IMG/VR virus record: IMGVR_UViG_2695420487_000003 | Span: 1-10,598 of that record | DNA: 10,598 nucleotides | Origin: a virus | Taxonomy: Duplodnaviria; Heunggongvirae; Uroviricota; Caudoviricetes | Direction: 5' to 3' (one strand) | In this document: piece by piece, positions 3,900 through 10,598 of the stretch | Layout of the letters: every line of letters starts with the position of its first letter | Position numbering within the stretch: the first letter of the stretch is position 1 | The notes under the pieces: model-generated | What the model was told of the DNA's origin: nothing | Databases searched by the model: none | The model's input: the letters and a program-made list of their open reading frames with translations, nothing else | Position numbers and translations under genes: made by a program

Positions 3900-5561
3900 T
3901 TATATGAAAAAAACCTCATACGCTTTCTTTTTCGGTTCCGGATTCAGGGACATCAGGGACACCGCATTGAAGAGCGCCATCAGCGGGTCAATTTTTCCCC
4001 GTCCGCTGGCCTGTTTGGTGATAAGAATGGCGTTACCTTTAGGCTCCCCCCGGGCATTGCCAACGCACCAGGCCATCAGTGGCTGACCACCATGCACCAG
4101 CACTCCCTCAGCCAGTTTGCGCTCGGTGGTTTTGATGGCCCCGCCCAGCTTCCAGCCCTGGCTTATCCCCACCACACTCTCATCGGGGATCCCGGCTTCC
4201 GCCAGTGAATCCAGAATCTGCCCCACACCTGACGGGGCAATACCGATATGGTCCAGTAACTCAGCCTCATGAATACGACGCACATACTCCGCCACTTCCG
4301 CCGTGTCATCCCCGACCCGACGGACAATCGTCATGTCTCCACAGGCCACAAAATCCTGAAACCGGGATGCCTCACTCTTCCGTCTGACCACCGCGGTTTC
4401 ATGCACCCAGGCATGGCCCCAGCCCAGCCATTCGCGGGTTTCCCTGTCACGGCCAGTCACGTACATTCCCAGCAGATCATCCAGGCCCCCGCCGTCAATC
4501 CCCACCGTCACCACATCAGCGCGCTGCAGGATATCGTCCAGGCTGACGCGCCTGCCCTGCTGCTCCCAGAAATCCGCGCCCGCCCAGCGGTCAGAACGCA
4601 GGGCAAGACCGATTTCCACATTGGCGTGTTTTGACATGAAGCCACGAAATGCTTCCTCACCAGCCTCCCGGGCTTTACGGTACTCCCGGTACAGAAAAGC
4701 CTCATCCACCGAATAACCGAGATTCGGGTTAACCATGGCGAGGTTTTCCATCAGCAGGTGAGCCCCGCTTTCCACCATTTCAGGAGGGTGTTCAAATATC
4801 ACCGGCAGAAAGTGCGGATCATGAATTTTGCCGTCACGGACATCCCGGGCGTACTGCAGTTTCTGTCTGAACACCCCGGCTGGCGGCTCATTCGACTGGG
4901 TGGTTGTGTACACCACAAATCCTTCCGGACGGGAGGCAAGCCCGCCGATGGCTTCACGTAGCATGTCTTCCGCTTTGTACTGCTTGCCAAACAGCCACAG
5001 TTCATCAATCAGTGTCCCCACGGACTTGATACCGGACACCGTATTCGGATCGGCTGCCACCACCTTCAGGGTGGTGTCCGTCACCCGATGGGTGATGGTC
5101 CGGATATGTGTCTGCACCTGACAGAGGTCATCCAGATCATCGTCCCGTCGCACCATATCCCTGGCAGGGTTGAAGGCGTTGGCCGCCACCTCCACGGTCG
5201 GGGCCAGAATGGTGTAGCCCGCCGCCTGCCGCCAGTTCAGTAACAGCGCCGTCATCATGATCCCCGCGGCCAGCGTGGACTTACTGTTTTTCTTGGGGAT
5301 AAGGATAAACACTTCCTTGATATGGCGTACACCGGTCTGCGCATCATAGGAGCCAAACAGGGCCGCCACCAGGTCAAACACCCACGGTGCGCAGGACTCC
5401 CCGAACGTCGGGCTACCCGGTGCATCCACAATCCGCAGTTGTTTAAAAATCGCCAGGGCATGTGCAGCCTGGTCCGGATAAATCGGAGCCGGAATAATCG
5501 ACAGTCCCTTTTGCAGGCGCTCTGCCCAGTCCGGACATGCCGTGCTCCATACAGGTATCAT
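3900..5561 (-). CDS. terL: terminase large subunit (Terminase_1 / COG4626-like)
   Basis: 553-aa ORF. ATG at 5561 overlaps the terS stop (ATGA). Deviant Walker-A-like ILIPKKNSKST; C-terminal GKIDPLMALFNAVSLM typical of the nuclease end of this terminase family. Lies directly downstream of a small-terminase gene. Confidence 0.85.
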   Translation of the reverse strand: MIPVWSTACPDWAERLQKGLSIIPAPIYPDQAAHALAIFKQLRIVDAPGSPTFGESCAPWVFDLVAALFGSYDAQTGVRHIKEVFILIPKKNSKSTLAAGIMMTALLLNWRQAAGYTILAPTVEVAANAFNPARDMVRRDDDLDDLCQVQTHIRTITHRVTDTTLKVVAADPNTVSGIKSVGTLIDELWLFGKQYKAEDMLREAIGGLASRPEGFVVYTTTQSNEPPAGVFRQKLQYARDVRDGKIHDPHFLPVIFEHPPEMVESGAHLLMENLAMVNPNLGYSVDEAFLYREYRKAREAGEEAFRGFMSKHANVEIGLALRSDRWAGADFWEQQGRRVSLDDILQRADVVTVGIDGGGLDDLLGMYVTGRDRETREWLGWGHAWVHETAVVRRKSEASRFQDFVACGDMTIVRRVGDDTAEVAEYVRRIHEAELLDHIGIAPSGVGQILDSLAEAGIPDESVVGISQGWKLGGAIKTTERKLAEGVLVHGGQPLMAWCVGNARGEPKGNAILITKQASGRGKIDPLMALFNAVSLMSLNPEPKKKAYEVFFI

Positions 5562-6121
5562 CCGCTTTCCTCATTCTGGTTATTCACCACCAGCCGGGGA
5601 GGTGGTGGCACCGCAAAACGGTTAGCCGCTTTTTTCGCGGCATCACCTTTTGCCGATTTTTTACCGGCATCGCCTTTTTTATGGTGCGTGAACTGCGCCA
5701 GACGCCAGGCCGCATCCAGTGCCAGTTTCGGATCAATGCAGAGGTTTTCCACCAGGATCCGCCCCATGGCTTTCACCGGATCGGGAAGACCATCCTCCAT
5801 ATATTCAATACCAGGAGACATCACCGCGGACGGTGGCATCTCCGGATTGTTTTCGTCCGGCTGTGGTATTGCAGCCACCTCACGGCGACGGGGTTTATCC
5901 TCCTGCTCTGATTTTTTCTGCCGGTAAACAGGAACCTCATCCACCTCCACCGTCTCGCACTGTTTACGGGCTATAAACGCGAGCACCTCCGGATCTTTTG
6001 CCAGCTGCGAGCCTTTAACCCTGGCGGTCTTCGCCGAATAACCGGCGGCAATGGCTGACGCTGTTTTGTTTTTCCCGGACATGAGCGCCAGCGCAAATTT
6101 TCGTTTTTGCGTTGTCAGCAC
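5558..6121 (-). CDS. terS: terminase small subunit (P27 / Terminase_2-like)
   Basis: 187-aa ORF. GTG start at 6121 preceded by GGAGGAGG. N-terminus LTTQKRKFALALMSGKNKTASAIAAGYSAKTARVKGSQLAKDPEV matches the conserved helix-turn-helix start of Terminase_2-type small subunits. Lys/Ala-rich C-terminus. Stop overlaps the terL start. Confidence 0.75.
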   Translation of the reverse strand: MLTTQKRKFALALMSGKNKTASAIAAGYSAKTARVKGSQLAKDPEVLAFIARKQCETVEVDEVPVYRQKKSEQEDKPRRREVAAIPQPDENNPEMPPSAVMSPGIEYMEDGLPDPVKAMGRILVENLCIDPKLALDAAWRLAQFTHHKKGDAGKKSAKGDAAKKAANRFAVPPPPRLVVNNQNEESG

Positions 6122-6410
6122 AGCCTCCTCCCGGGTCCAGAACGCACTCAGCCGGGTATGGTTCAGCCCATTTTTCCCGGCGTCTCATGCCGCAAATGTT
6201 AACTGCTGCCTGGTTAACATTTGCTGAAAAAGCCAGTTAACATTTTTTTCGCACAACAAACTGAATAATAAAGATAAAAACCGAAAAAATGCCCGGGCAG
6301 CCAGTTAACATGTTAACTGGCCTGAAACAGGAATTTTTTCTCTGCATGAGACGGGGGGCGGTGTCCGGGGCGATCGTTTTTTTCGCCGGATGATCCCCCC
6401 CCGGGTCGGG
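6122..6410. other. non-coding packaging-recognition region, candidate cos site (cosN/cosB-like)
   Basis: 289-bp interval between the HNH stop and the terS start with no convincing ORF. Contains the GTTAACAT repeat array, an A/T-rich tract (6244-6290) and a GC-rich segment (6351-6410) with G6 and C8 runs; its core GGGCGGTGTCC resembles the lambda cohesive end GGGCGGCGACCT. The HNH-cos-terS layout is typical of HK97-like cos phages. Confidence 0.4.
6192..6320. repeat. array of CAGTTAACAT / ATGTTAACTG decamer repeats including a perfect 20-bp palindrome
   Basis: Copies at 6196-6205 (ATGTTAACTG), 6211-6220 (tGGTTAACAT), 6234-6243 (CAGTTAACAT), 6302-6311 (CAGTTAACAT) and 6311-6320 (ATGTTAACTG). 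Inverted pair gcaaatgttaac (6192-6203) / gttaacatttgc (6213-6224); perfect palindrome ccagttaacatgttaactgg at 6301-6320. Confidence 0.8.
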
Positions 6411-6776
6411 TTACAGTCCGATGATGTCGTCTGCTCTGCCATGACCTCCGGACACCTCCGGCAGCATCGGGTCCGGCATACCACTCACCGCTTCACGAGC
6501 AGACTTTTGTCGATGGCATTCGGTACAGAGCGTCCAGAGATTCGTCTCCTCATTACCACCACCGAACTGAAGTGCAATGCGGTGATCGAGTTCACTGTCA
6601 CAGAGGTCAACCACACGACCACAGAGACAGCACTGCCCGGCATCCCTGAGCCAGATATGACGCTTGAGGGAAACACGTGCACTGCCACTGACACGACGCT
6701 GTTCCCCCTTCAGAATATTCACCCGTCGGGTGTTCAGAGTTTTGATTCTGCTCTGGAGTGTACGAAGCTCAGCCAT
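6411..6776 (-). CDS. HNH endonuclease (terminase-associated type)
   Basis: 121-aa ORF. ATG at 6776 with GGGGA 6 nt upstream. HNH/zinc-finger motif CCLCGRVVDLCDSELDHRIALQFGGGNEETNLWTLCTECHRQKS. Lies immediately upstream of the candidate cos region and terS, as in HK97-like phages. Confidence 0.85.
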   Translation of the reverse strand: MAELRTLQSRIKTLNTRRVNILKGEQRRVSGSARVSLKRHIWLRDAGQCCLCGRVVDLCDSELDHRIALQFGGGNEETNLWTLCTECHRQKSAREAVSGMPDPMLPEVSGGHGRADDIIGL

Positions 6777-6817
6777 GTAAAATCCCCGTCATATGGCAAT
6801 CAGTAAAGGAAATAAAT

Positions 6818-7018
6818 ATGTCATCGAAAAACCGGACCCGCAGAACCACAACCCGCAATATCCGTTTCCCCAATCACATGATTGAACAGATCAACATCGC
6901 CCTTGAGCATAAAGGGTCCAGTAACTTTTCAGCGTGGGTTATTGAAGCCTGCAGGAGAAGGCTGGCAACAGATGCAACGCATCTGCGTACGGCCAGCATG
7001 ACAAATAACGAGAAATGA
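6818..7018 (+). CDS. small basic protein, DUF3950/YlcI-like (prophage-associated)
   Basis: Internal ATG at 6818 of track ORF 6758..7018, preceded by AAAGGA about 8 nt upstream. 66 aa: MSSKNRTRRTTTRNIRFPNHMIEQINIALEHKGSSNFSAWVIEACRRRLATDATHLRTASMTNNEK. From memory this resembles the YlcI/DUF3950 family of E. coli prophages; unverified. Only convincing plus-strand gene in the window. Confidence 0.55.
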   Translation: MSSKNRTRRTTTRNIRFPNHMIEQINIALEHKGSSNFSAWVIEACRRRLATDATHLRTASMTNNEK

Positions 7019-7207
7019 ACGTTCGGTTTCTTCCACCATCGTACCGGACAGGCGACTATGAGGGGACAACGCCGCGCTCCGTTAACGCGGTAAACCCCGG
7101 TGTGTATCGTTTTTGATTATCCCCGCACACTCGCGCAGAGGAGTCTCCCTGTCGGGCTACGGTCATGGTTAATGCGGAAATACGGCGACGATACAGCGCA
7201 TAATGTG

Positions 7208-7756
7208 TCAGGCTTGAATACCTTTATCGAATCCCGGTAATAAAAACTGTCCCTGTCTCTCCAGACGTTCCAGCTTTGCAAGCAATTGAGGTTTTTTCGT
7301 TCTCCCCCAGCGATTGAGCAGACGGCCTGACATGCTGGCGACATCCTTCTCTTTCATGTACTCCAGCATTACGACGTTACGTTCTGCTTCATAACTTTCG
7401 CTGTACTTACGGAGTTCTGCTGACATCCAGTTAAACGCATTGATATAGGCTTCTTTAACAGCATCGGCTTTTGCCCCGTTAAATCCCATAACCAGCATAA
7501 CGAAGCCACTAAAGTCCATGCGGTAGTAAATCTGTTTCTTGTCAAAAATACCTAAGTCATTGATTTTCTCGACGGCCCCAAAATGGGTTGTCGAGAATTC
7601 CTCAGAACATCTCAAACATTTAATAGCCCTAATCACATGCTGATGGCGTTTACCAAATGCCCTGGCAATCTGGAAGGTGTCAGTTACCGGTTGACCTTCT
7701 GCTGCGGTAACTAACTGGCGAAAGTCGAAGTCATGATTCGCAATTAATTCATTCAT
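7208..7756 (-). CDS. Rha-family phage regulatory protein (Phage_pRha domain)
   Basis: N-terminal region QPVTDTFQIARAFGKRHQHVIRAIKCLRC...FSTTHFG...YYRMDFSGFVMLVMGFNG matches the Rha domain pattern (xVTxSxxIAExFGKRHxxVLRxI). Start placed at the ATG at 7756 (MNELIANHDF...); the track ORF extends to a GTG at 7825, which is an alternative start. Composition is more AT-rich than the head genes. Confidence 0.6.
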   Translation of the reverse strand: MNELIANHDFDFRQLVTAAEGQPVTDTFQIARAFGKRHQHVIRAIKCLRCSEEFSTTHFGAVEKINDLGIFDKKQIYYRMDFSGFVMLVMGFNGAKADAVKEAYINAFNWMSAELRKYSESYEAERNVVMLEYMKEKDVASMSGRLLNRWGRTKKPQLLAKLERLERQGQFLLPGFDKGIQA

Positions 7757-7910
7757 GGCGTTGCCTGCTTCTTTGAAATGAACCTTTGCCGCACAGGAAA
7801 CCAGCCCACCGAGGCTCGCCAGCACTAACTGGTATCCTCAAAGGCCCATTCCAAAGGGTCAGGTTCGGTGTTTATTGTGCGCTGCGGTGCGCGGTGAAAT
7901 ACCGGTACAA

Positions 7911-7936
7911 AAATGCCCCGCATCTGCGAGGCATTT
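7911..7936 (-). terminator. weak hairpin plus short U-tract downstream of Rz (possible terminator or RNA-stabilising stem)
   Basis: Arms aaatgcc (7911-7917) and ggcattt (7930-7936) with inner cgca/tgcg pairing. On the minus strand the stem is followed by TTTTTGT. About 40 nt downstream of the Rz stop. Confidence 0.25.
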
Positions 7937-7974
7937 TCCTGAAAGTCACTTGTTAAATTTCAGTGAAATTAAAA

Positions 7975-8412
7975 TTATTTTAAGCACTGCGTCCTGATGT
8001 ATTCCTGCAGGTAGTTAACCTGCGCGGTTATCTTGTCGATTCCACCTCGGAGACGGTAATAATTGAGTTCAGCATCTGCTGTAAGTCCTGGGCTTTCTCC
8101 ATCGCCCATGCTGCTGGCTCCGGTCGTTGACTTTGCACAGGTGGCGGAGACTTGCAGGCGCTTACGCCCAGCAGAAACATCAGCACGGAGACTTTCGATA
8201 GTCGCATTAGCATCAGCAAGCTCCTTTGTGTATCTGGCGTCAAGTTCTGCTACATCACGTTGCCGCTTCTGCATATCAGCGATGATGGATGTGGCTTTAT
8301 CGCGCTGCTCTTTGTAGGCGATGGCGTTATCACGGTAATGATTAACAGCCCATGAAAGGCAGACGATGAGGCAGATGACCAGAACGTAGATAATCGCGGT
8401 TACTCTGCTCAT
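7975..8412 (-). CDS. Rz: i-spanin Rz
   Basis: ATG at 8412 overlaps the endolysin stop (ATGA). N-terminal transmembrane segment [20 protein letters not shown] followed by a charged, coiled-coil periplasmic domain. Position is immediately after the endolysin. The track ORF has a 4-codon GTG extension that I reject. Confidence 0.75.
8028..8213 (-). CDS. Rz1: o-spanin Rz1 (outer-membrane lipoprotein), embedded in Rz in another frame
   Basis: ATG at 8213 with AAGGAG 8 nt upstream. [20 protein letters not shown] gives a signal peptide with a lipobox-like VSAC Cys, followed by the proline-rich [16 protein letters not shown]. Wholly nested inside Rz, as in lambda and phage 21. Confidence 0.65.
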
Positions 8413-8906
8413 TGTTGCCCCCACAAACAGACTTCACGCTCAATCTCACGGCGAGTCATCAGCCCTTTCCATTGCTTACCGCCAGCGTATGTCCAGCGCC
8501 GTAGCTGATCACATGCGCCTTTGATATCGCCCTGGTTTATTTTGCGAAGAAGCGTCGATGTTCTGAAATTGCCAGCGCCCACGTTGTAAACGAACGAGTA
8601 AAGAGCGCCGCGCGTTGTTTCCGGTATATCGACTTTGATGTACGGGTTTATTTGTCTGGCGACCGTGGCAAGGTCTTTATTCAGGAGGGCTTTGCATTCT
8701 GCTTCGGTATACGTTTTACCGGGCATGATGTCTTTTCCGGTGTGTCCATGACATACAGTCCATACGCCAACGATATCTTCGTATGGTATGTAGCTGACAC
8801 CTTCCAGGCCATCGTCACCACTCGGACCAGTGATGAGCACAGACGCTATGGCAACAGCCCCACCACCAATAGCAGCAGCAACGGCTTTTCGTAATGATGG
8901 AGGCAT
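8409..8906 (-). CDS. R: SAR endolysin (phage-21 R / lysozyme, signal-anchor-release type)
   Basis: 165 aa. N-terminal Gly/Ala-rich weakly hydrophobic SAR segment [30 protein letters not shown]. Catalytic E35-x8-D44-x5-T50 spacing in [17 protein letters not shown]. Resembles the R21 / DLP12 RrrD lysozyme family. Start overlaps the holin stop (TAATG). Confidence 0.9.
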
Positions 8907-9112
8907 TATTCACCTCTCGCAGCCTTGCGCTTATCTTCTTTAATCTTGAAATAAAGGTTTGTCAGATACGTCAGCAGGCCAAACAGCAGACTCCCCAGCA
9001 CACCGATTGCCACCCACTGGGACGGAGAGACTTTGTCCAGCAGCTGCAGTAACCAGTATCCCGTCCCCACCGCTGACGTGGTGTATGACACACCCGTTGT
9101 GATTTTTTCCAT
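8906..9112 (-). CDS. S: class II holin (pinholin, phage-21 S-like)
   Basis: 68 aa from the ATG at 9112: [68 protein letters not shown]. Two transmembrane segments and a charged C-terminus. Paired with a SAR endolysin, which is the pinholin signature. The track's GTG-initiated 23-codon extension is rejected. Confidence 0.85.
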
Positions 9113-9367
9113 CTGATGTATGTCTCCGTCACCGCCGACAGAAAATGAAAGTAAAGGAAAACAAAAAGCCGCCAGTGTCACCCACTGACGGCCAACTCCG
9201 GGAGCCGTGATTATGGCATTCAGGCTCTGCTAAAAATGCCAGATAACATTCCGACCAACCCCTGATTCAGGTTATAAATGACACAATATCTTGACAACAT
9301 CCGTCACTGTCTGTCAGAAAATGTACTGCCAGATATAAGTATCATGTGAAACCCAACTATCCTTCTT

Positions 9368-9411: not shown

Positions 9412-10598
9412 TTATGCTGCCGGTGCATTTATCTCCAGCACCAGACTTTCTATCTCAACGCCATACGCTGCATTTTTTGTAACATCCGTCAGCGTCAGCA
9501 CATTCAGTCCCAGTGTCAGACTGTCTTTTATAACCTGGAATGCCGGGCCAGCCACTCCATTCAGTTTCGGAGTAACCGTGGCACTGCCGGCGGTGAACAC
9601 CAGCTCCAGCGTCTGCCAGTCGTTACCGTAATCGCCGAACTCCCCCAGCTTCGTGTTTCCGGCTTTCCTGTGATGCATCAGATTCACTCTGCCGTCAGTG
9701 GTCTGAGTGAAGTACGACATCAGGAACGGATTACCGGTACCCGTCATCGCCACACCATCAGGAACGGGAGCATCCGTATACAGATAAATCCCCAGCCCGA
9801 ACTGATTGTTGGTCAGTGCGCCTGACAGGCGGAACTTACAGTTCAGTCTGCCGCCCTGTGTCAGCAGGGTAATTGCGTCATCCACCGGATGCGTCAGGGA
9901 CCAGGNNNNNNNNNGACAACTGAATTCCGCCATCCTTAATGCTCCAGCCCTGCGCAGCAGCCTCTCCGGCTGCCGGCAGCAGGGAGATTGTGCGAACGGA
10001 CGTATCTGCAGACGGACCCGATGGCGTGTTGCCGCCGGGCGAGGGTTTGATTTCCGGTGCCTTACCACTGATGAAGGCTGAGGTGCGCCCGGCTGCGTTC
10101 AGAATAGCGGTTGCCAGACGATCCGGAATAATGCTCCTGCGCGCCCATGAACTGAAATGTGTCGGGCGGTTTGATGATACCTGGTTTCCATTCGTTCTCG
10201 ATGCCGCACCGTAATATCCTGATGCCGGAATATCCGGATCTTCTGCCGGCGCGTTAGTGGCGGTATTGACGCCGTTACCGTCTGTCATGAAGGGCACAAA
10301 ATAAACGCCCTCACTCTCCCTGTTTTTATACCCGCCGTACACGGTGTCGTACTGGGTAGCGTATGTATTTTTCCAGTAATACGTCGTGTCACCACAAATC
10401 CACGGCACATTTACAGCACTGCCACCATGACACTGCGCGTTAAACACAGTGAGGTCAGCACGAAACTGCTTCAGCATGGCTGTAAACAGCGCAGGTTGCT
10501 GTGCGTAGGTGGCGGCGCTCATGTCAAACTCTCCCTGCATCCAGCACACCGCCAGCAACACATTTTTCGGGTTCTTCTGTAATGCAGCTTTAGTGCGC
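9412..10598 (-). CDS. large esterase-like late-region protein, probably NanS-p-type sialate O-acetylesterase; partial (N-terminus beyond right edge) and broken by an assembly gap
   Basis: Track ORFs 9878..10561 and 9412..10068 are one gene whose frame changes across the N-run at 9906-9914. The upstream frame remains open to 10598 (RTKAALQKNPKNVLLAVCWMQGEFD...). Stop TAA at 9412-9414. Sits immediately upstream of holin S, where lambdoid/Stx prophages carry the nanS-p (yjhS-like) gene. Family call is from context and memory, not a search. Confidence 0.5.
9906..9914. other. run of 9 N (assembly or scaffold gap)
   Basis: Literal nnnnnnnnn in the sequence; the reading frame of the enclosing gene differs on the two sides, so the true gap length is probably not 9. 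Confidence 0.95.

What the first reader, a model, noticed from the sequence alone, without database searches (positions are those of the whole stretch)
6818..7825. Moron-like insertion of a Rha-family regulator and a convergent YlcI-like small basic protein between the lysis cassette and the packaging genes
Two genes unrelated to lysis or morphogenesis sit between Rz and the HNH/terS module: a Rha-family regulatory protein (minus strand) and a 66-aa basic DUF3950/YlcI-like protein, the only plus-strand gene in the window, convergent with Rha. The segment looks more AT-rich than the flanking head genes, consistent with separately acquired cargo. Rha-domain proteins are often annotated as antirepressors or regulators. 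Functions of both are essentially uncharacterised, and their position next to the candidate cos repeats raises the possibility that one of them binds the GTTAACAT motifs.
Basis: partly seen in the sequence, partly recalled or inferred. Interest (0 to 1): 0.45.

Follow-up and report, generated by a model that had tools for sequence, protein, structure and literature searches.

The report
Prophage Rha and YlcI cargo genes
Between the lysis and DNA-packaging genes of this E. coli lambda-like prophage sit a P22-type Rha regulator and a tiny YlcI/YnfO protein; the layout is common and already annotated, but YlcI, which is in 77% of complete E. coli genomes and in phage lambda, looks like an unrecognised ribbon-helix-helix DNA-binding protein.

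Summary
Rha (7208-7825, minus) hits Phage_pRha and ORF11CD3. The 66-aa basic protein (6818-7018, plus) hits DUF3950/YlcI_YnfO. A 98.6% identical E. coli prophage in RefSeq carries the same annotation.

They are not one insertion. Rha is swappable cargo: GC is 0.447, and sister prophages carry KilA-N, TonB-like, DUF6979 or nothing in its place. It is 84% identical to P22 Rha, which occupies the same slot after Rz.

ylcI is a separate unit found wherever a packaging module begins, always on the strand opposite the late operon:
- It is in 4184 of 5426 complete E. coli genomes.
- It is beside cos in lambda, where RefSeq leaves it unannotated.
- It is under strong purifying selection (19 synonymous versus 5 non-synonymous codon changes against lambda).

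Models and fold searches point to a ribbon-helix-helix fold, without statistical significance. Distant relatives occupy the single counter-oriented slot of P4-like/PICI satellites, and some are fused to a TerS N-terminal domain.

The idea that Rha or YlcI binds the GTTAACAT repeats is not supported. The repeats follow the HNH-terS module, so TerS is the likelier binder.

Verdict: ordinary and already known. YlcI's function remains an open lead.

The parts
7208..7825 (-). rha: Rha-family regulator with an N-terminal Phage_pRha winged-helix domain (aa 48-135) and a C-terminal ORF11CD3 domain (aa 144-197). Ortholog of P22 rha/orf201.
   Evidence: Pfam, NCBIfam and PHROG hits. 84.4% aa identity over residues 1-199 to P22 rha, which lies directly after Rz/Rz1 in P22. 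GC 0.447.
6818..7018 (+). ylcI/ynfO-family gene: 66-aa basic protein with an invariant core (aa 1-50) and a hypervariable C-terminal tail. Predicted strand-helix-helix, ribbon-helix-helix-like.
   Evidence: DUF3950 and NF041551 hits. Core against tail conservation. Against lambda: 23 of 29 nucleotide differences at third codon positions, 19 synonymous against 5 non-synonymous codons. AF2 models. Foldseek top hits are RHH proteins at E 0.6-5.
7019..7207 (.). Conserved, unannotated non-coding spacer between the convergent ylcI and rha. It recurs in thousands of prophages with different neighbours and is probably a recombination linker at the edge of the cargo slot.
   Evidence: 5127 copies in 1999 of 5426 E. 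coli genomes, no annotated feature in most listed records. Neighbours vary. No significant RNA fold, z -0.75 to -1.36. No Rfam hit.
7905..7938 (-). Intrinsic terminator hairpin (13-bp stem plus U-tract) downstream of Rz and upstream of rha.
   Evidence: RNA fold -21.4 kcal/mol, z -3.75, followed by UUUUUGU.
6411..6776 (-). HNH endonuclease, first gene of the packaging module. Its start lies 41 bp from the ylcI start, divergent.
   Evidence: Pfam HNH, phrog_589, PGAP annotation in L001.
6196..6319 (.). GTTAACAT/ATGTTAAC repeat cluster between HNH and terS (candidate cos/terS-binding sites). It belongs to the packaging module, not to Rha or ylcI.
   Evidence: 8 GTTAAC in the window against 1.5 expected, five of them here. 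Retained unchanged in prophages without Rha, absent near lambda cos.
5558..6121 (-). Terminase small subunit (context). Its N-terminal about 55 aa are the domain found fused to YlcI-like domains in satellites.
   Evidence: Terminase_2 hit. 62% identity to the C-terminal domain of P0189.
7975..8424 (-). Rz spanin, with Rz1 embedded at 8028-8243. Last gene of the lysis cassette and upstream boundary of the cargo slot.
   Evidence: Phage_lysis, E 1.1e-34.

Best explanation
The segment is the variable cargo slot that lambdoid phages keep between the lysis cassette and the packaging module. Here the host is an E. coli Stx-phage-like prophage with an HNH/terS/HK97-type head module. The slot holds two unrelated units.

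(1) rha. This is the ortholog of P22 rha, a winged-helix regulator with an ORF11CD3 C-terminal domain. It lies on the late strand behind a strong terminator that follows Rz. I infer it is made mainly during lytic growth, when Q-modified polymerase reads through that terminator. I infer it then acts as a late DNA-binding or anti-repressor-type regulator. By homology to P22 and phi80 Rha, it should be harmful to phage growth when IHF is absent.

(2) ylcI. This is an independently inherited, protein-level-conserved 66-aa gene that marks the upstream edge of packaging modules of different types. It is always transcribed against the late operon. I infer it encodes a dimeric ribbon-helix-helix DNA-binding protein: a basic N-arm, a strand at RNIRFP and two helices. 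I infer it is made from its own promoter in the prophage state and silenced by head-on late transcription after induction. I infer it works as a small repressor or insulator that keeps transcription out of the nuclease and terminase genes until induction.

Shown: gene identities, orthology, independence of the two units, orientation, purifying selection, prevalence and the terminator.
Inferred: timing of expression, the RHH fold, DNA binding and the gatekeeper role.
For: Identity. A 98.6% identical prophage has the same PGAP annotation.

Rha:
- 84% identical to P22 Rha, in the same slot after Rz/Rz1.
- The literature describes it as a late-operon gene inhibitory in IHF mutants (PMC4936722).
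- Terminator after Rz: -21.4 kcal/mol, z -3.75.
- No sigma-70-like promoter found upstream of rha.
- Cargo status: GC 0.447 and replacement by other genes in sister prophages.

ylcI:
- Opposite to the late genes in all 17 loci whose neighbours I inspected.
- Next to HNH here, and 389 bp from Nu1 across cos in lambda-type modules.
- 9566 copies in 4184 of 5426 E. coli genomes.
- Against lambda, codon-position differences are [6,0,23], with 19 synonymous against 5 non-synonymous codons.
- ybcW-ylcI is listed among convergent overlapping transcript pairs (excludons) that an RNA-seq survey reports for E. coli (PMC12288877).

RHH fold:
- Two AF2 models give an extended N-terminus, helix 19-32 and helix 34/37-63, at pLDDT 71-73.
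- Most of the listed Foldseek PDB hits are RHH proteins: NikR, Arc, ParD, MazE9-N, TacA, HicB, CopA, MatP, CdbA.
- Weak HicB-like PHROG hit, E 0.0037.
- hhalign puts NIRFP on Arc NLRWP and Mnt NFRMP in the correct register.

Analogy: distant homologs sit as the only counter-oriented gene between alpA and the primase operon of P4-like/PICI satellites. One of them has an operator-like repeat array upstream.
Against: - No fold or profile match to RHH proteins is statistically significant: Foldseek E >= 0.57, hhalign probability <= 9%, and no PDB sequence hit.
- No dimer model could be made.
- No repeat or palindrome lies near ylcI in the window.
- No sequence of 9 nt or more is shared between the ylcI upstream regions of the window type and the lambda type, so no operator is identified.
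- The only promoter-like site upstream of ylcI is a 9/12 match at chance frequency.
- Expression of this copy was not measured.
- The IHF link for Rha is by homology only. The single IHF-consensus match lies inside rha and is at chance level.
- A review of lambda lysogeny lists only cI, rexAB, lom and bor as expressed in lysogens (PMC7067206), so ylcI expression in lambda lysogens is not established.
Confidence: 0.55

Rival explanations
1. One reading: Rha and YlcI form one moron-like insertion, and one of them binds the GTTAACAT repeats next to cos and so influences packaging.
For: Both are predicted DNA-binding proteins and lie 500-900 bp from the repeats. Every prophage I inspected with this HNH-terS module also has ylcI. 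One more GTTAAC lies at 7081, in the spacer between the two genes.
Against: The two genes occur independently of each other. The repeats are unchanged where Rha is absent. Lambda, DLP12 and Qin-type prophages have a 90% identical YlcI core with an identical strand motif, but lambda-type cos regions contain no GTTAAC. The repeats co-vary with terS. A satellite protein carrying a related TerS N-domain sits beside its own repeat array, GTGCACAAACAC, which makes TerS the natural binder.
Confidence: 0.07
2. YlcI is a packaging-conflict factor, not a transcriptional gatekeeper. In this reading the RHH module acts on cos or terminase recognition, for example to block packaging of rival phages or satellites or to tune TerS binding.
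For: ylcI is tied to the edge of packaging modules of two unrelated types, and in lambda lies 200-390 bp from cosN. In satellites, YlcI-like or other RHH-like N-domains are fused to the N-terminal HTH domain of a TerS (P0189, P0218-P0221). That domain is 67% identical to the TerS of the helper prophage in which one satellite is embedded, and 62% identical to this window's TerS. A published survey lists YlcI/YnfO family proteins among the genes of capsid-forming PICIs (PMC13612085).
Against: The gene is antisense to the late operon, so it should be least expressed when packaging happens. The YlcI core does not co-vary with the terminase or cos type. Only five fusion clusters were found, all from metagenome assemblies. 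No hit in defence-system profiles.
Confidence: 0.2
3. ylcI is not a functional protein gene. In this reading it is a shadow ORF, or only its antisense transcription matters, or it is an orphan RHH antitoxin remnant.
For: In satellites the YlcI-like ORF is fully overlapped by a 200-511-aa ORF on the other strand. Two phage-type records annotate that long ORF instead. Lambda RefSeq does not annotate ylcI.
Against: The ylcI frame shows the coding signature: no second-position changes, and 19 synonymous against 5 non-synonymous codons against lambda. Every antisense frame fares worse. In satellites the plus frame also has more synonymous and fewer non-synonymous changes than the long antisense ORF. 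That ORF lies in the wobble-sharing frame that typically yields shadow ORFs, and its peptide across the overlap is Ser/Leu-rich. The ORF is intact in over 900 protein clusters. No co-directional toxin partner exists here or in lambda.
Confidence: 0.06
4. Rha acts as an anti-repressor that inactivates the repressor of this or co-resident prophages, not as a DNA-binding transcription factor.
For: PHROG neighbours are annotated anti-repressor (phrog_20738, phrog_15204, phrog_63 'Ant'). The same slot holds KilA-N or 'phage antirepressor' genes in sister prophages. IdasGreatGrand annotates its ortholog as an anti-repressor.
Against: These labels are annotation transfers, not experiments. The only genetics known to me for the ortholog is the IHF-dependent growth inhibition. 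No solved structure or partner is known.
Confidence: 0.2

Closest known systems
P22 Rha (orf201) and phi80 Rha
   Same: 84% aa identity to P22 Rha over residues 1-199. Same domain pair. Same genomic slot, immediately after Rz/Rz1 and before the packaging genes, on the late strand.
   Different: Here the downstream module is ylcI-HNH-terS (HK97-like cos packaging), not P22's ORF25/ORF80/ORF59C followed by gene 3 (headful). The IHF-dependent phenotype was not tested for this copy.
E. coli K-12 YlcI (DLP12) and YnfO (Qin), plus the unannotated lambda ORF at 48109-48303
   Same: Same family. The core is 90% identical (5 differences in the first 50 residues). Same orientation against the late operon and same place at the upstream edge of the packaging module.
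   Different: In those phages the neighbour is cos-Nu1, here it is an HNH gene. The C-terminal tail is unrelated.
Arc and Mnt repressors of P22, and RHH antitoxins (ParD, HicB C-terminal domain, CopG, NikR N-terminal domain)
   Same: Size, basic N-arm, predicted strand-helix-helix order, and an NxRxP strand motif in register with Arc and Mnt. These proteins dominate the Foldseek hit lists.
   Different: No significant sequence or structure score. No operator identified. No partner toxin. Dimerisation and DNA binding are untested.
Lambdoid morons in the same region (lambda bor; the moron concept from the HK97/HK022 genome comparison, from my own knowledge)
   Same: Presence/absence polymorphism between otherwise homologous prophages, atypical GC, and location between late-operon genes. 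ylcI, like bor, is on the opposite strand.
   Different: Rha has no detectable own promoter and is described for P22 as a late-operon gene. ylcI is close to universal in E. coli, not sporadic.
Stl/Rpr master repressors of Gram-positive PICIs
   Same: In P4-like/PICI satellites of Enterobacterales the YlcI-like gene is the single gene oriented against the int-alpA-primase genes, divergent from the primase operon. One case has repeats in the divergent region.
   Different: Different fold and size. No evidence of repression. This concerns relatives outside the window.

Membership tests
Rha family (Phage_pRha, PF09669 / TIGR02681) | Profile match above the curated cut-off | tested here: met
   PF09669 76.3 bits against 29.9. 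TIGR02681 73.5 against 45.95.
Rha family (P22/phi80 rha orthologs) | Full-length similarity to the genetically defined P22 rha, in the same slot after Rz | tested here: met
   84.4% identity over residues 1-199 of 205. P22 gene order is 13-19-15/Rz1-rha.
Rha family (P22/phi80 rha orthologs) | Rha phenotype: inhibits lytic growth in IHF-defective hosts, with expression controlled by IHF | not testable with these tools
   Known only from the literature as cited in PMC4936722. The single IHF-consensus match (7553-7565) lies inside the gene and is at chance level.
YlcI/YnfO family (DUF3950, PF13132 / NF041551) | Profile match above the curated cut-off | tested here: met
   PF13132 71.7 bits against 25. 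NF041551 35.4 against 30.
YlcI/YnfO family | Small protein encoded at the upstream edge of a lambdoid packaging module, on the strand opposite the late genes | tested here: met
   Window, L001, L002, lambda, DLP12, L092, L093, L095, L096, L004-L006, L017, L028 and L036-L038.
Ribbon-helix-helix (Arc/MetJ/CopG) superfamily | Strand-helix-helix topology of about 45 residues | tested here: met
   AF2 gives an extended 1-18, helix 19-32 and helix 34/37-63, at pLDDT 71-73. The strand cannot be assigned in a monomer model.
Ribbon-helix-helix (Arc/MetJ/CopG) superfamily | Significant sequence-profile or structural similarity to a known member | tested here: inconclusive
   The Foldseek hit lists are dominated by RHH proteins, but E is 0.57-5. 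hhalign against Arc gives E 0.0036 at probability 9%, and against Mnt E 0.068. No Pfam RHH hit and no PDB sequence hit.
Ribbon-helix-helix (Arc/MetJ/CopG) superfamily | Intertwined homodimer that binds DNA through the two-stranded sheet | not testable with these tools
No operator candidate was found.
Moron (autonomous cargo unit in a late operon) | Presence/absence polymorphism between otherwise homologous phages, plus atypical composition | tested here: met
   Met for rha (GC 0.447). For ylcI the composition shift is weak (0.488) and the gene is close to universal in E. coli.
Moron (autonomous cargo unit in a late operon) | Own promoter and own terminator | tested here: inconclusive
   No promoter-like site upstream of rha. 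The one upstream of ylcI (6688-6716, 9/12) is at chance frequency. There is a strong terminator upstream of rha, but none between ylcI and rha.
Type II toxin-antitoxin (RHH antitoxin) | Co-directional adjacent toxin gene | tested here: not met
   No other plus-strand gene in the window, none beside lambda ylcI, and no defence-profile hit.

The most novel reading that the evidence does not exclude
The YlcI/YnfO family is an unrecognised class of prophage-state ribbon-helix-helix gatekeepers. In this reading each is a counter-oriented mini-gene placed in the path of a long inducible operon, just upstream of a module that is dangerous if expressed early: the HNH/terminase genes and cos in lambdoid phages including lambda, and the replication operon in P4-like/PICI satellites. 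There it could be the repressor said to be unclear for Gram-negative PICIs (PMC6092414). Some versions have captured a TerS DNA-binding domain.
Probability: 0.18. Interest if true: 0.65.

Novelty: already known. Interest (0 to 1): 0.28.

Why it matters
The locus as reported is routine. It is another copy of a mosaic slot that phage biologists have known since the P22 and lambda genomes, and annotation pipelines already name both genes.

What is worth keeping is the lead on YlcI:
- It is one of the commonest prophage genes in E. coli (77% of complete genomes, up to 12 copies each).
- It is present but unannotated next to cos in the lambda reference genome.
- It is under strong purifying selection.
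- It has no known function.

If it is a DNA-binding gatekeeper of packaging genes or of satellite replication, it would add a regulator to the best-studied phage. It would also give a testable candidate for the unresolved control of Gram-negative phage satellites.

Tried and rejected
- Rfam scan of the whole window at E <= 1: nothing relevant.
- Folding of the 189-bp spacer on both strands: not better than shuffles.
- IHF-site search upstream of rha: only a chance-level match inside the gene.
- Operator search: no direct or inverted repeats in 6600-7230, and no k-mer of 9 nt or more shared between window-type and lambda-type ylcI upstream regions.
- PDB sequence searches with YlcI, the YlcI profile and Rha: no usable hits.
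- Pfam at E <= 10 on 17 family members: no RHH family.
- BFVD fold search: uninformative.
- Defence-system profiles for Rha, YlcI and the fusion protein: none.
- Pfam on the long ORFs antisense to satellite YlcI-like genes: none.
- The original Rha paper (PMC177009) is not in the library. The lambda ribosome-profiling paper was not found in the library search.
- A PICI paper reporting a 'putative transcriptional repressor' turned out to concern a PerC-like protein, not YlcI.
- I considered that the satellite similarity might be an antisense artefact of a real long gene. I rejected it because the substitution pattern favours the YlcI frame.
Full report
**What the window is.** All long ORFs but one lie on the minus strand. 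Reading with that strand, the order is:
- a SASA-type esterase gene
- holin (8906-9181)
- lysozyme (8409-8906)
- Rz (7975-8424), with Rz1 embedded
- Rha (7208-7825)
- the plus-strand 66-aa ORF (6818-7018)
- HNH endonuclease (6411-6776)
- a GTTAACAT repeat cluster
- terS (5558-6121)
- terL
- a prohead-protease/major-capsid fusion
- portal

Pfam confirms each of the genes I scanned, from holin to terS. A 98.6% identical stretch exists in E. coli Z1323HEC0393. There PGAP annotates 'Rha family transcriptional regulator', 'YlcI/YnfO family protein', 'HNH endonuclease' and 'terminase small subunit' in the same order and orientation. The window is therefore a late region of an E. coli lambdoid, Stx-phage-like prophage.

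- Rha matches Phage_pRha (76.3 bits, cut-off 29.9) and ORF11CD3, TIGR02681 and phrog_518.
- The small ORF matches DUF3950 (71.7 bits, cut-off 25) and NF041551 YlcI_YnfO_N. It is basic, with pI 11.5.
- GC is 0.447 for rha, 0.488 for ylcI and 0.561 for the spacer between them. It is 0.50-0.51 for the lysis genes and 0.55-0.60 for the head and terminase genes.

The AT-rich shift is real, but it belongs to rha.

**The two genes are independent units.**
- Only 12 of 5426 E. coli genomes carry the whole 6300-8000 stretch, yet 2425 carry parts of it.
- Phage JLK-2012 and many Stx phages have HNH-ylcI followed by a TonB-like gene and a KilA-N gene in place of Rha.
- Strain NCTC86 has only a 74-aa hypothetical there, an O157 strain has KilA-N, and strain 123 has TonB. 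A prophage with a lambda-type terminase and no ylcI has DUF6979 in this slot.
- Conversely, phage IdasGreatGrand has this Rha (89% identity) after Rz with no ylcI. P22 has it too.
- Homology with IdasGreatGrand starts at 7019, the base after the ylcI stop. Homology with Rha-less prophages ends at 7201-7207, just before the rha stop.

The slot between Rz and the packaging genes is thus a mosaic cargo site. Rha is one of several alternative occupants.

**Rha.** The protein is 84.4% identical over residues 1-199 to P22 Rha. The P22 gene lies directly after 15/Rz1 and before the packaging genes. The conservation includes the first 22 residues, which supports the GTG start at 7825. The literature describes P22 rha (orf201) as a late-operon gene whose product, like phi80 Rha, blocks phage growth in hosts lacking IHF (PMC4936722, citing Mozola and Friedman 1985 and Henthorn and Friedman 1995). 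I could not read the primary paper.

Between Rz and rha lies a strong hairpin with a U-tract on the late strand, at 7905-7938 (-21.4 kcal/mol, z -3.75). No sigma-70-like promoter was found upstream of rha. I therefore infer that rha is expressed mainly by Q-antiterminated read-through during lytic growth. The only IHF-consensus match lies inside the gene and is at chance level. No solved structure is related to it.

**ylcI is a real, strongly constrained gene.**
- Its first 50 residues are almost invariant across more than 900 protein clusters, while the C-terminal tail is unrelated between variants. A mosaic junction therefore lies inside the 3' end of the gene.
- Against the lambda copy, the 150-nt core differs at 29 positions. 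By codon position these are 6, 0 and 23, giving 19 synonymous and 5 non-synonymous codon changes. All antisense frames fare worse.
- The core is found 9566 times in 4184 of 5426 complete E. coli genomes, up to 12 copies per genome.
- Beyond close relatives the family is small: 102 representative clusters among 1.84 billion.

**Where ylcI sits.**
- In K-12 DLP12 it is divergent from nohD, the Nu1 homolog.
- The lambda reference genome has an unannotated 64-aa ORF of this family at 48109-48303 on the minus strand, 200-390 bp left of cosN.
- In seven further Escherichia and Shigella loci, ylcI lies divergent from Nu1, 389 bp away in six of them.

The same conserved 150-bp coding core therefore abuts two unrelated packaging modules: cos-Nu1-A, and HNH-terS-terL here. 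In all 17 loci whose neighbours I inspected it is oriented against the late genes.

ybcW-ylcI is listed among the convergent overlapping transcript pairs (excludons) that an RNA-seq survey reports for E. coli (PMC12288877). Reading the gene names as K-12's, this is the only expression evidence I found. It parallels the rha-ylcI convergence here.

**What YlcI probably is.**
- Two AF2 runs, with shallow and more diverse alignments, give the same picture: an extended basic N-terminus to residue 18, helix 19-32, a short loop, and helix 34/37-63. pLDDT is 71-73.
- Foldseek against the PDB returns no significant match (best E 0.57). Even so, most of the listed hits for the second model are ribbon-helix-helix proteins: NikR, Arc, ParD, MazE9-N, TacA, HicB, VapB, CopA, MatP, CdbA and NikA.
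- hhalign places RNIRFP on Arc's NLRWP and Mnt's NFRMP, followed by the helix and a glycine, in the correct register. Probability is low.
- PHROGs gives a weak hit to a HicB-like family (E 0.0037).
- Pfam and PDB sequence searches find no RHH family.

I rate the RHH assignment at roughly 70%. No operator could be found. There are no repeats near ylcI in the window, and nothing is shared between the upstream regions of the two context types.

**Relatives outside lambdoid phages.** Distant homologs (34-60% identity) occur in Serratia, Xenorhabdus, Klebsiella, Enterobacter, Proteus, Pectobacterium, Rahnella and others. About half of these loci are P4-like or PICI-type satellites: integrase, AlpA, sometimes AntA, then the YlcI-like ORF on the opposite strand, then DUF4222 and small genes, then a Zn-ribbon/Toprim primase. 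A published survey also lists YlcI/YnfO proteins in capsid-forming PICIs (PMC13612085).

In these satellites a 200-511-aa ORF on the other strand overlaps the YlcI-like ORF, and two phage-type records annotate that ORF instead. The long ORF lies in the wobble-sharing antisense frame. Its peptide across the overlap is Ser/Leu-rich. The substitution pattern favours the YlcI frame, with fewest changes at its second positions and more synonymous changes. Homology among the long ORFs does extend beyond the overlap, so a real divergent gene probably starts nearby.

Five protein clusters from metagenome assemblies fuse a YlcI-like or other RHH-like N-domain to the first 55 or so residues of a TerS. 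They occupy the same counter-oriented slot. That TerS-like domain is 67% identical to the TerS of the helper prophage in which one satellite is embedded, and 62% identical to this window's TerS. Upstream of one fusion gene is an array of GTGCACAAACAC repeats.

**The GTTAACAT idea.** GTTAAC occurs 8 times in the window against 1.5 expected. Five copies lie between HNH and terS. The same five copies are present in prophages that share this HNH-terS module but lack Rha. Lambda, with a 90% identical YlcI core, has none in the 3.5 kb at its right end or in the first 200 bp past cos. The repeats belong to the packaging module. TerS is the obvious candidate binder, not Rha or YlcI.

**Mechanism I commit to.**
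- Rha is swappable late-operon cargo. It is a DNA-binding or anti-repressor-type regulator with the P22 Rha properties.
- YlcI is a separate, prophage-state RHH protein. Its gene faces the late operon at the entrance of the packaging genes, and its transcription and product act as a gatekeeper until Q-driven transcription overruns it.

The identities and architecture are shown. The timing, fold, DNA binding and gatekeeper role are inferred. A packaging-conflict role for YlcI is the main rival.

**Verdict.** The finding is correct as an observation and ordinary as biology. The only part with discovery potential is the function of the ubiquitous YlcI family.

Noticed in passing
window 7019-7207: This 189-bp non-coding spacer is conserved at 85-99% identity in 5127 places in 1999 of 5426 E. 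coli genomes and carries no annotated feature in most listed records. It always lies in the lysis-to-packaging interval but with different neighbours (ylcI, TonB-like, DUF1398, KilA-N, Rha, DUF6979, Rz). No significant RNA fold and no Rfam hit. It may be a recombination linker or an unrecognised regulatory element.
   Followed up: partly
L084 3110-3304 (lambda NC_001416 48109-48303, minus strand): The lambda RefSeq record does not annotate a 64-aa YlcI/YnfO-family ORF lying 200-390 bp from the right cohesive end. Its first 50 residues are identical to those of K-12 YlcI.
   Followed up: yes
loci L004, L007-L035, L039, L040, L042, L066, L074: Contigs of about 3.5 kb or 48.5 kb carrying lambda's right end (ybcW, ybcV, bor and Rz homologs at 97-100%) appear in genome assemblies of unrelated taxa such as Nanosynbacter, Kitasatospora, Cohnella, Pedobacter and Streptomyces. 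They look like lambda control-DNA contamination of public assemblies.
   Followed up: partly
window 9906-9914: A run of 9 N interrupts the SASA-family esterase gene, so ORFs 9412-10068 and 9878-10561 are probably one gene. The 98.6% identical prophage has a single 1851-nt CDS there.
   Followed up: no
window 7905-7938 (minus strand): A strong intrinsic terminator lies directly after Rz: 13-bp stem, -21.4 kcal/mol, z -3.75, followed by a U-tract. The simple terminator scan missed it.
   Followed up: yes
L090 4518-4646 and 4714-5103; L091 8001-8429: Satellites with an int-alpA-primase layout encode, on the opposite strand, a fusion of an RHH-like domain to the N-terminal HTH domain of a TerS. 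In L090 three direct copies and further inverted copies of GTGCACAAACAC lie 70-190 bp upstream. L091 is a satellite embedded in a prophage late region.
   Followed up: partly
L054, L058, L064-L069, L072, L075, L079-L083, L088, L089 (YlcI-like match regions): In satellites the YlcI-like ORF is completely overlapped by a 200-511-aa ORF on the other strand, in the wobble-sharing frame. Two phage-type records annotate the long ORF, one of them as 'transcriptional repressor'. Substitution patterns favour the short YlcI frame, so some of these long ORFs may be mis-annotated or 5'-over-extended.
   Followed up: partly
window 6196-6319: Five GTTAAC cores (GTTAACAT/ATGTTAAC) lie between HNH and terS. 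They are conserved unchanged in every prophage inspected that shares this module, which makes them good candidates for TerS binding sites or cos.
   Followed up: partly
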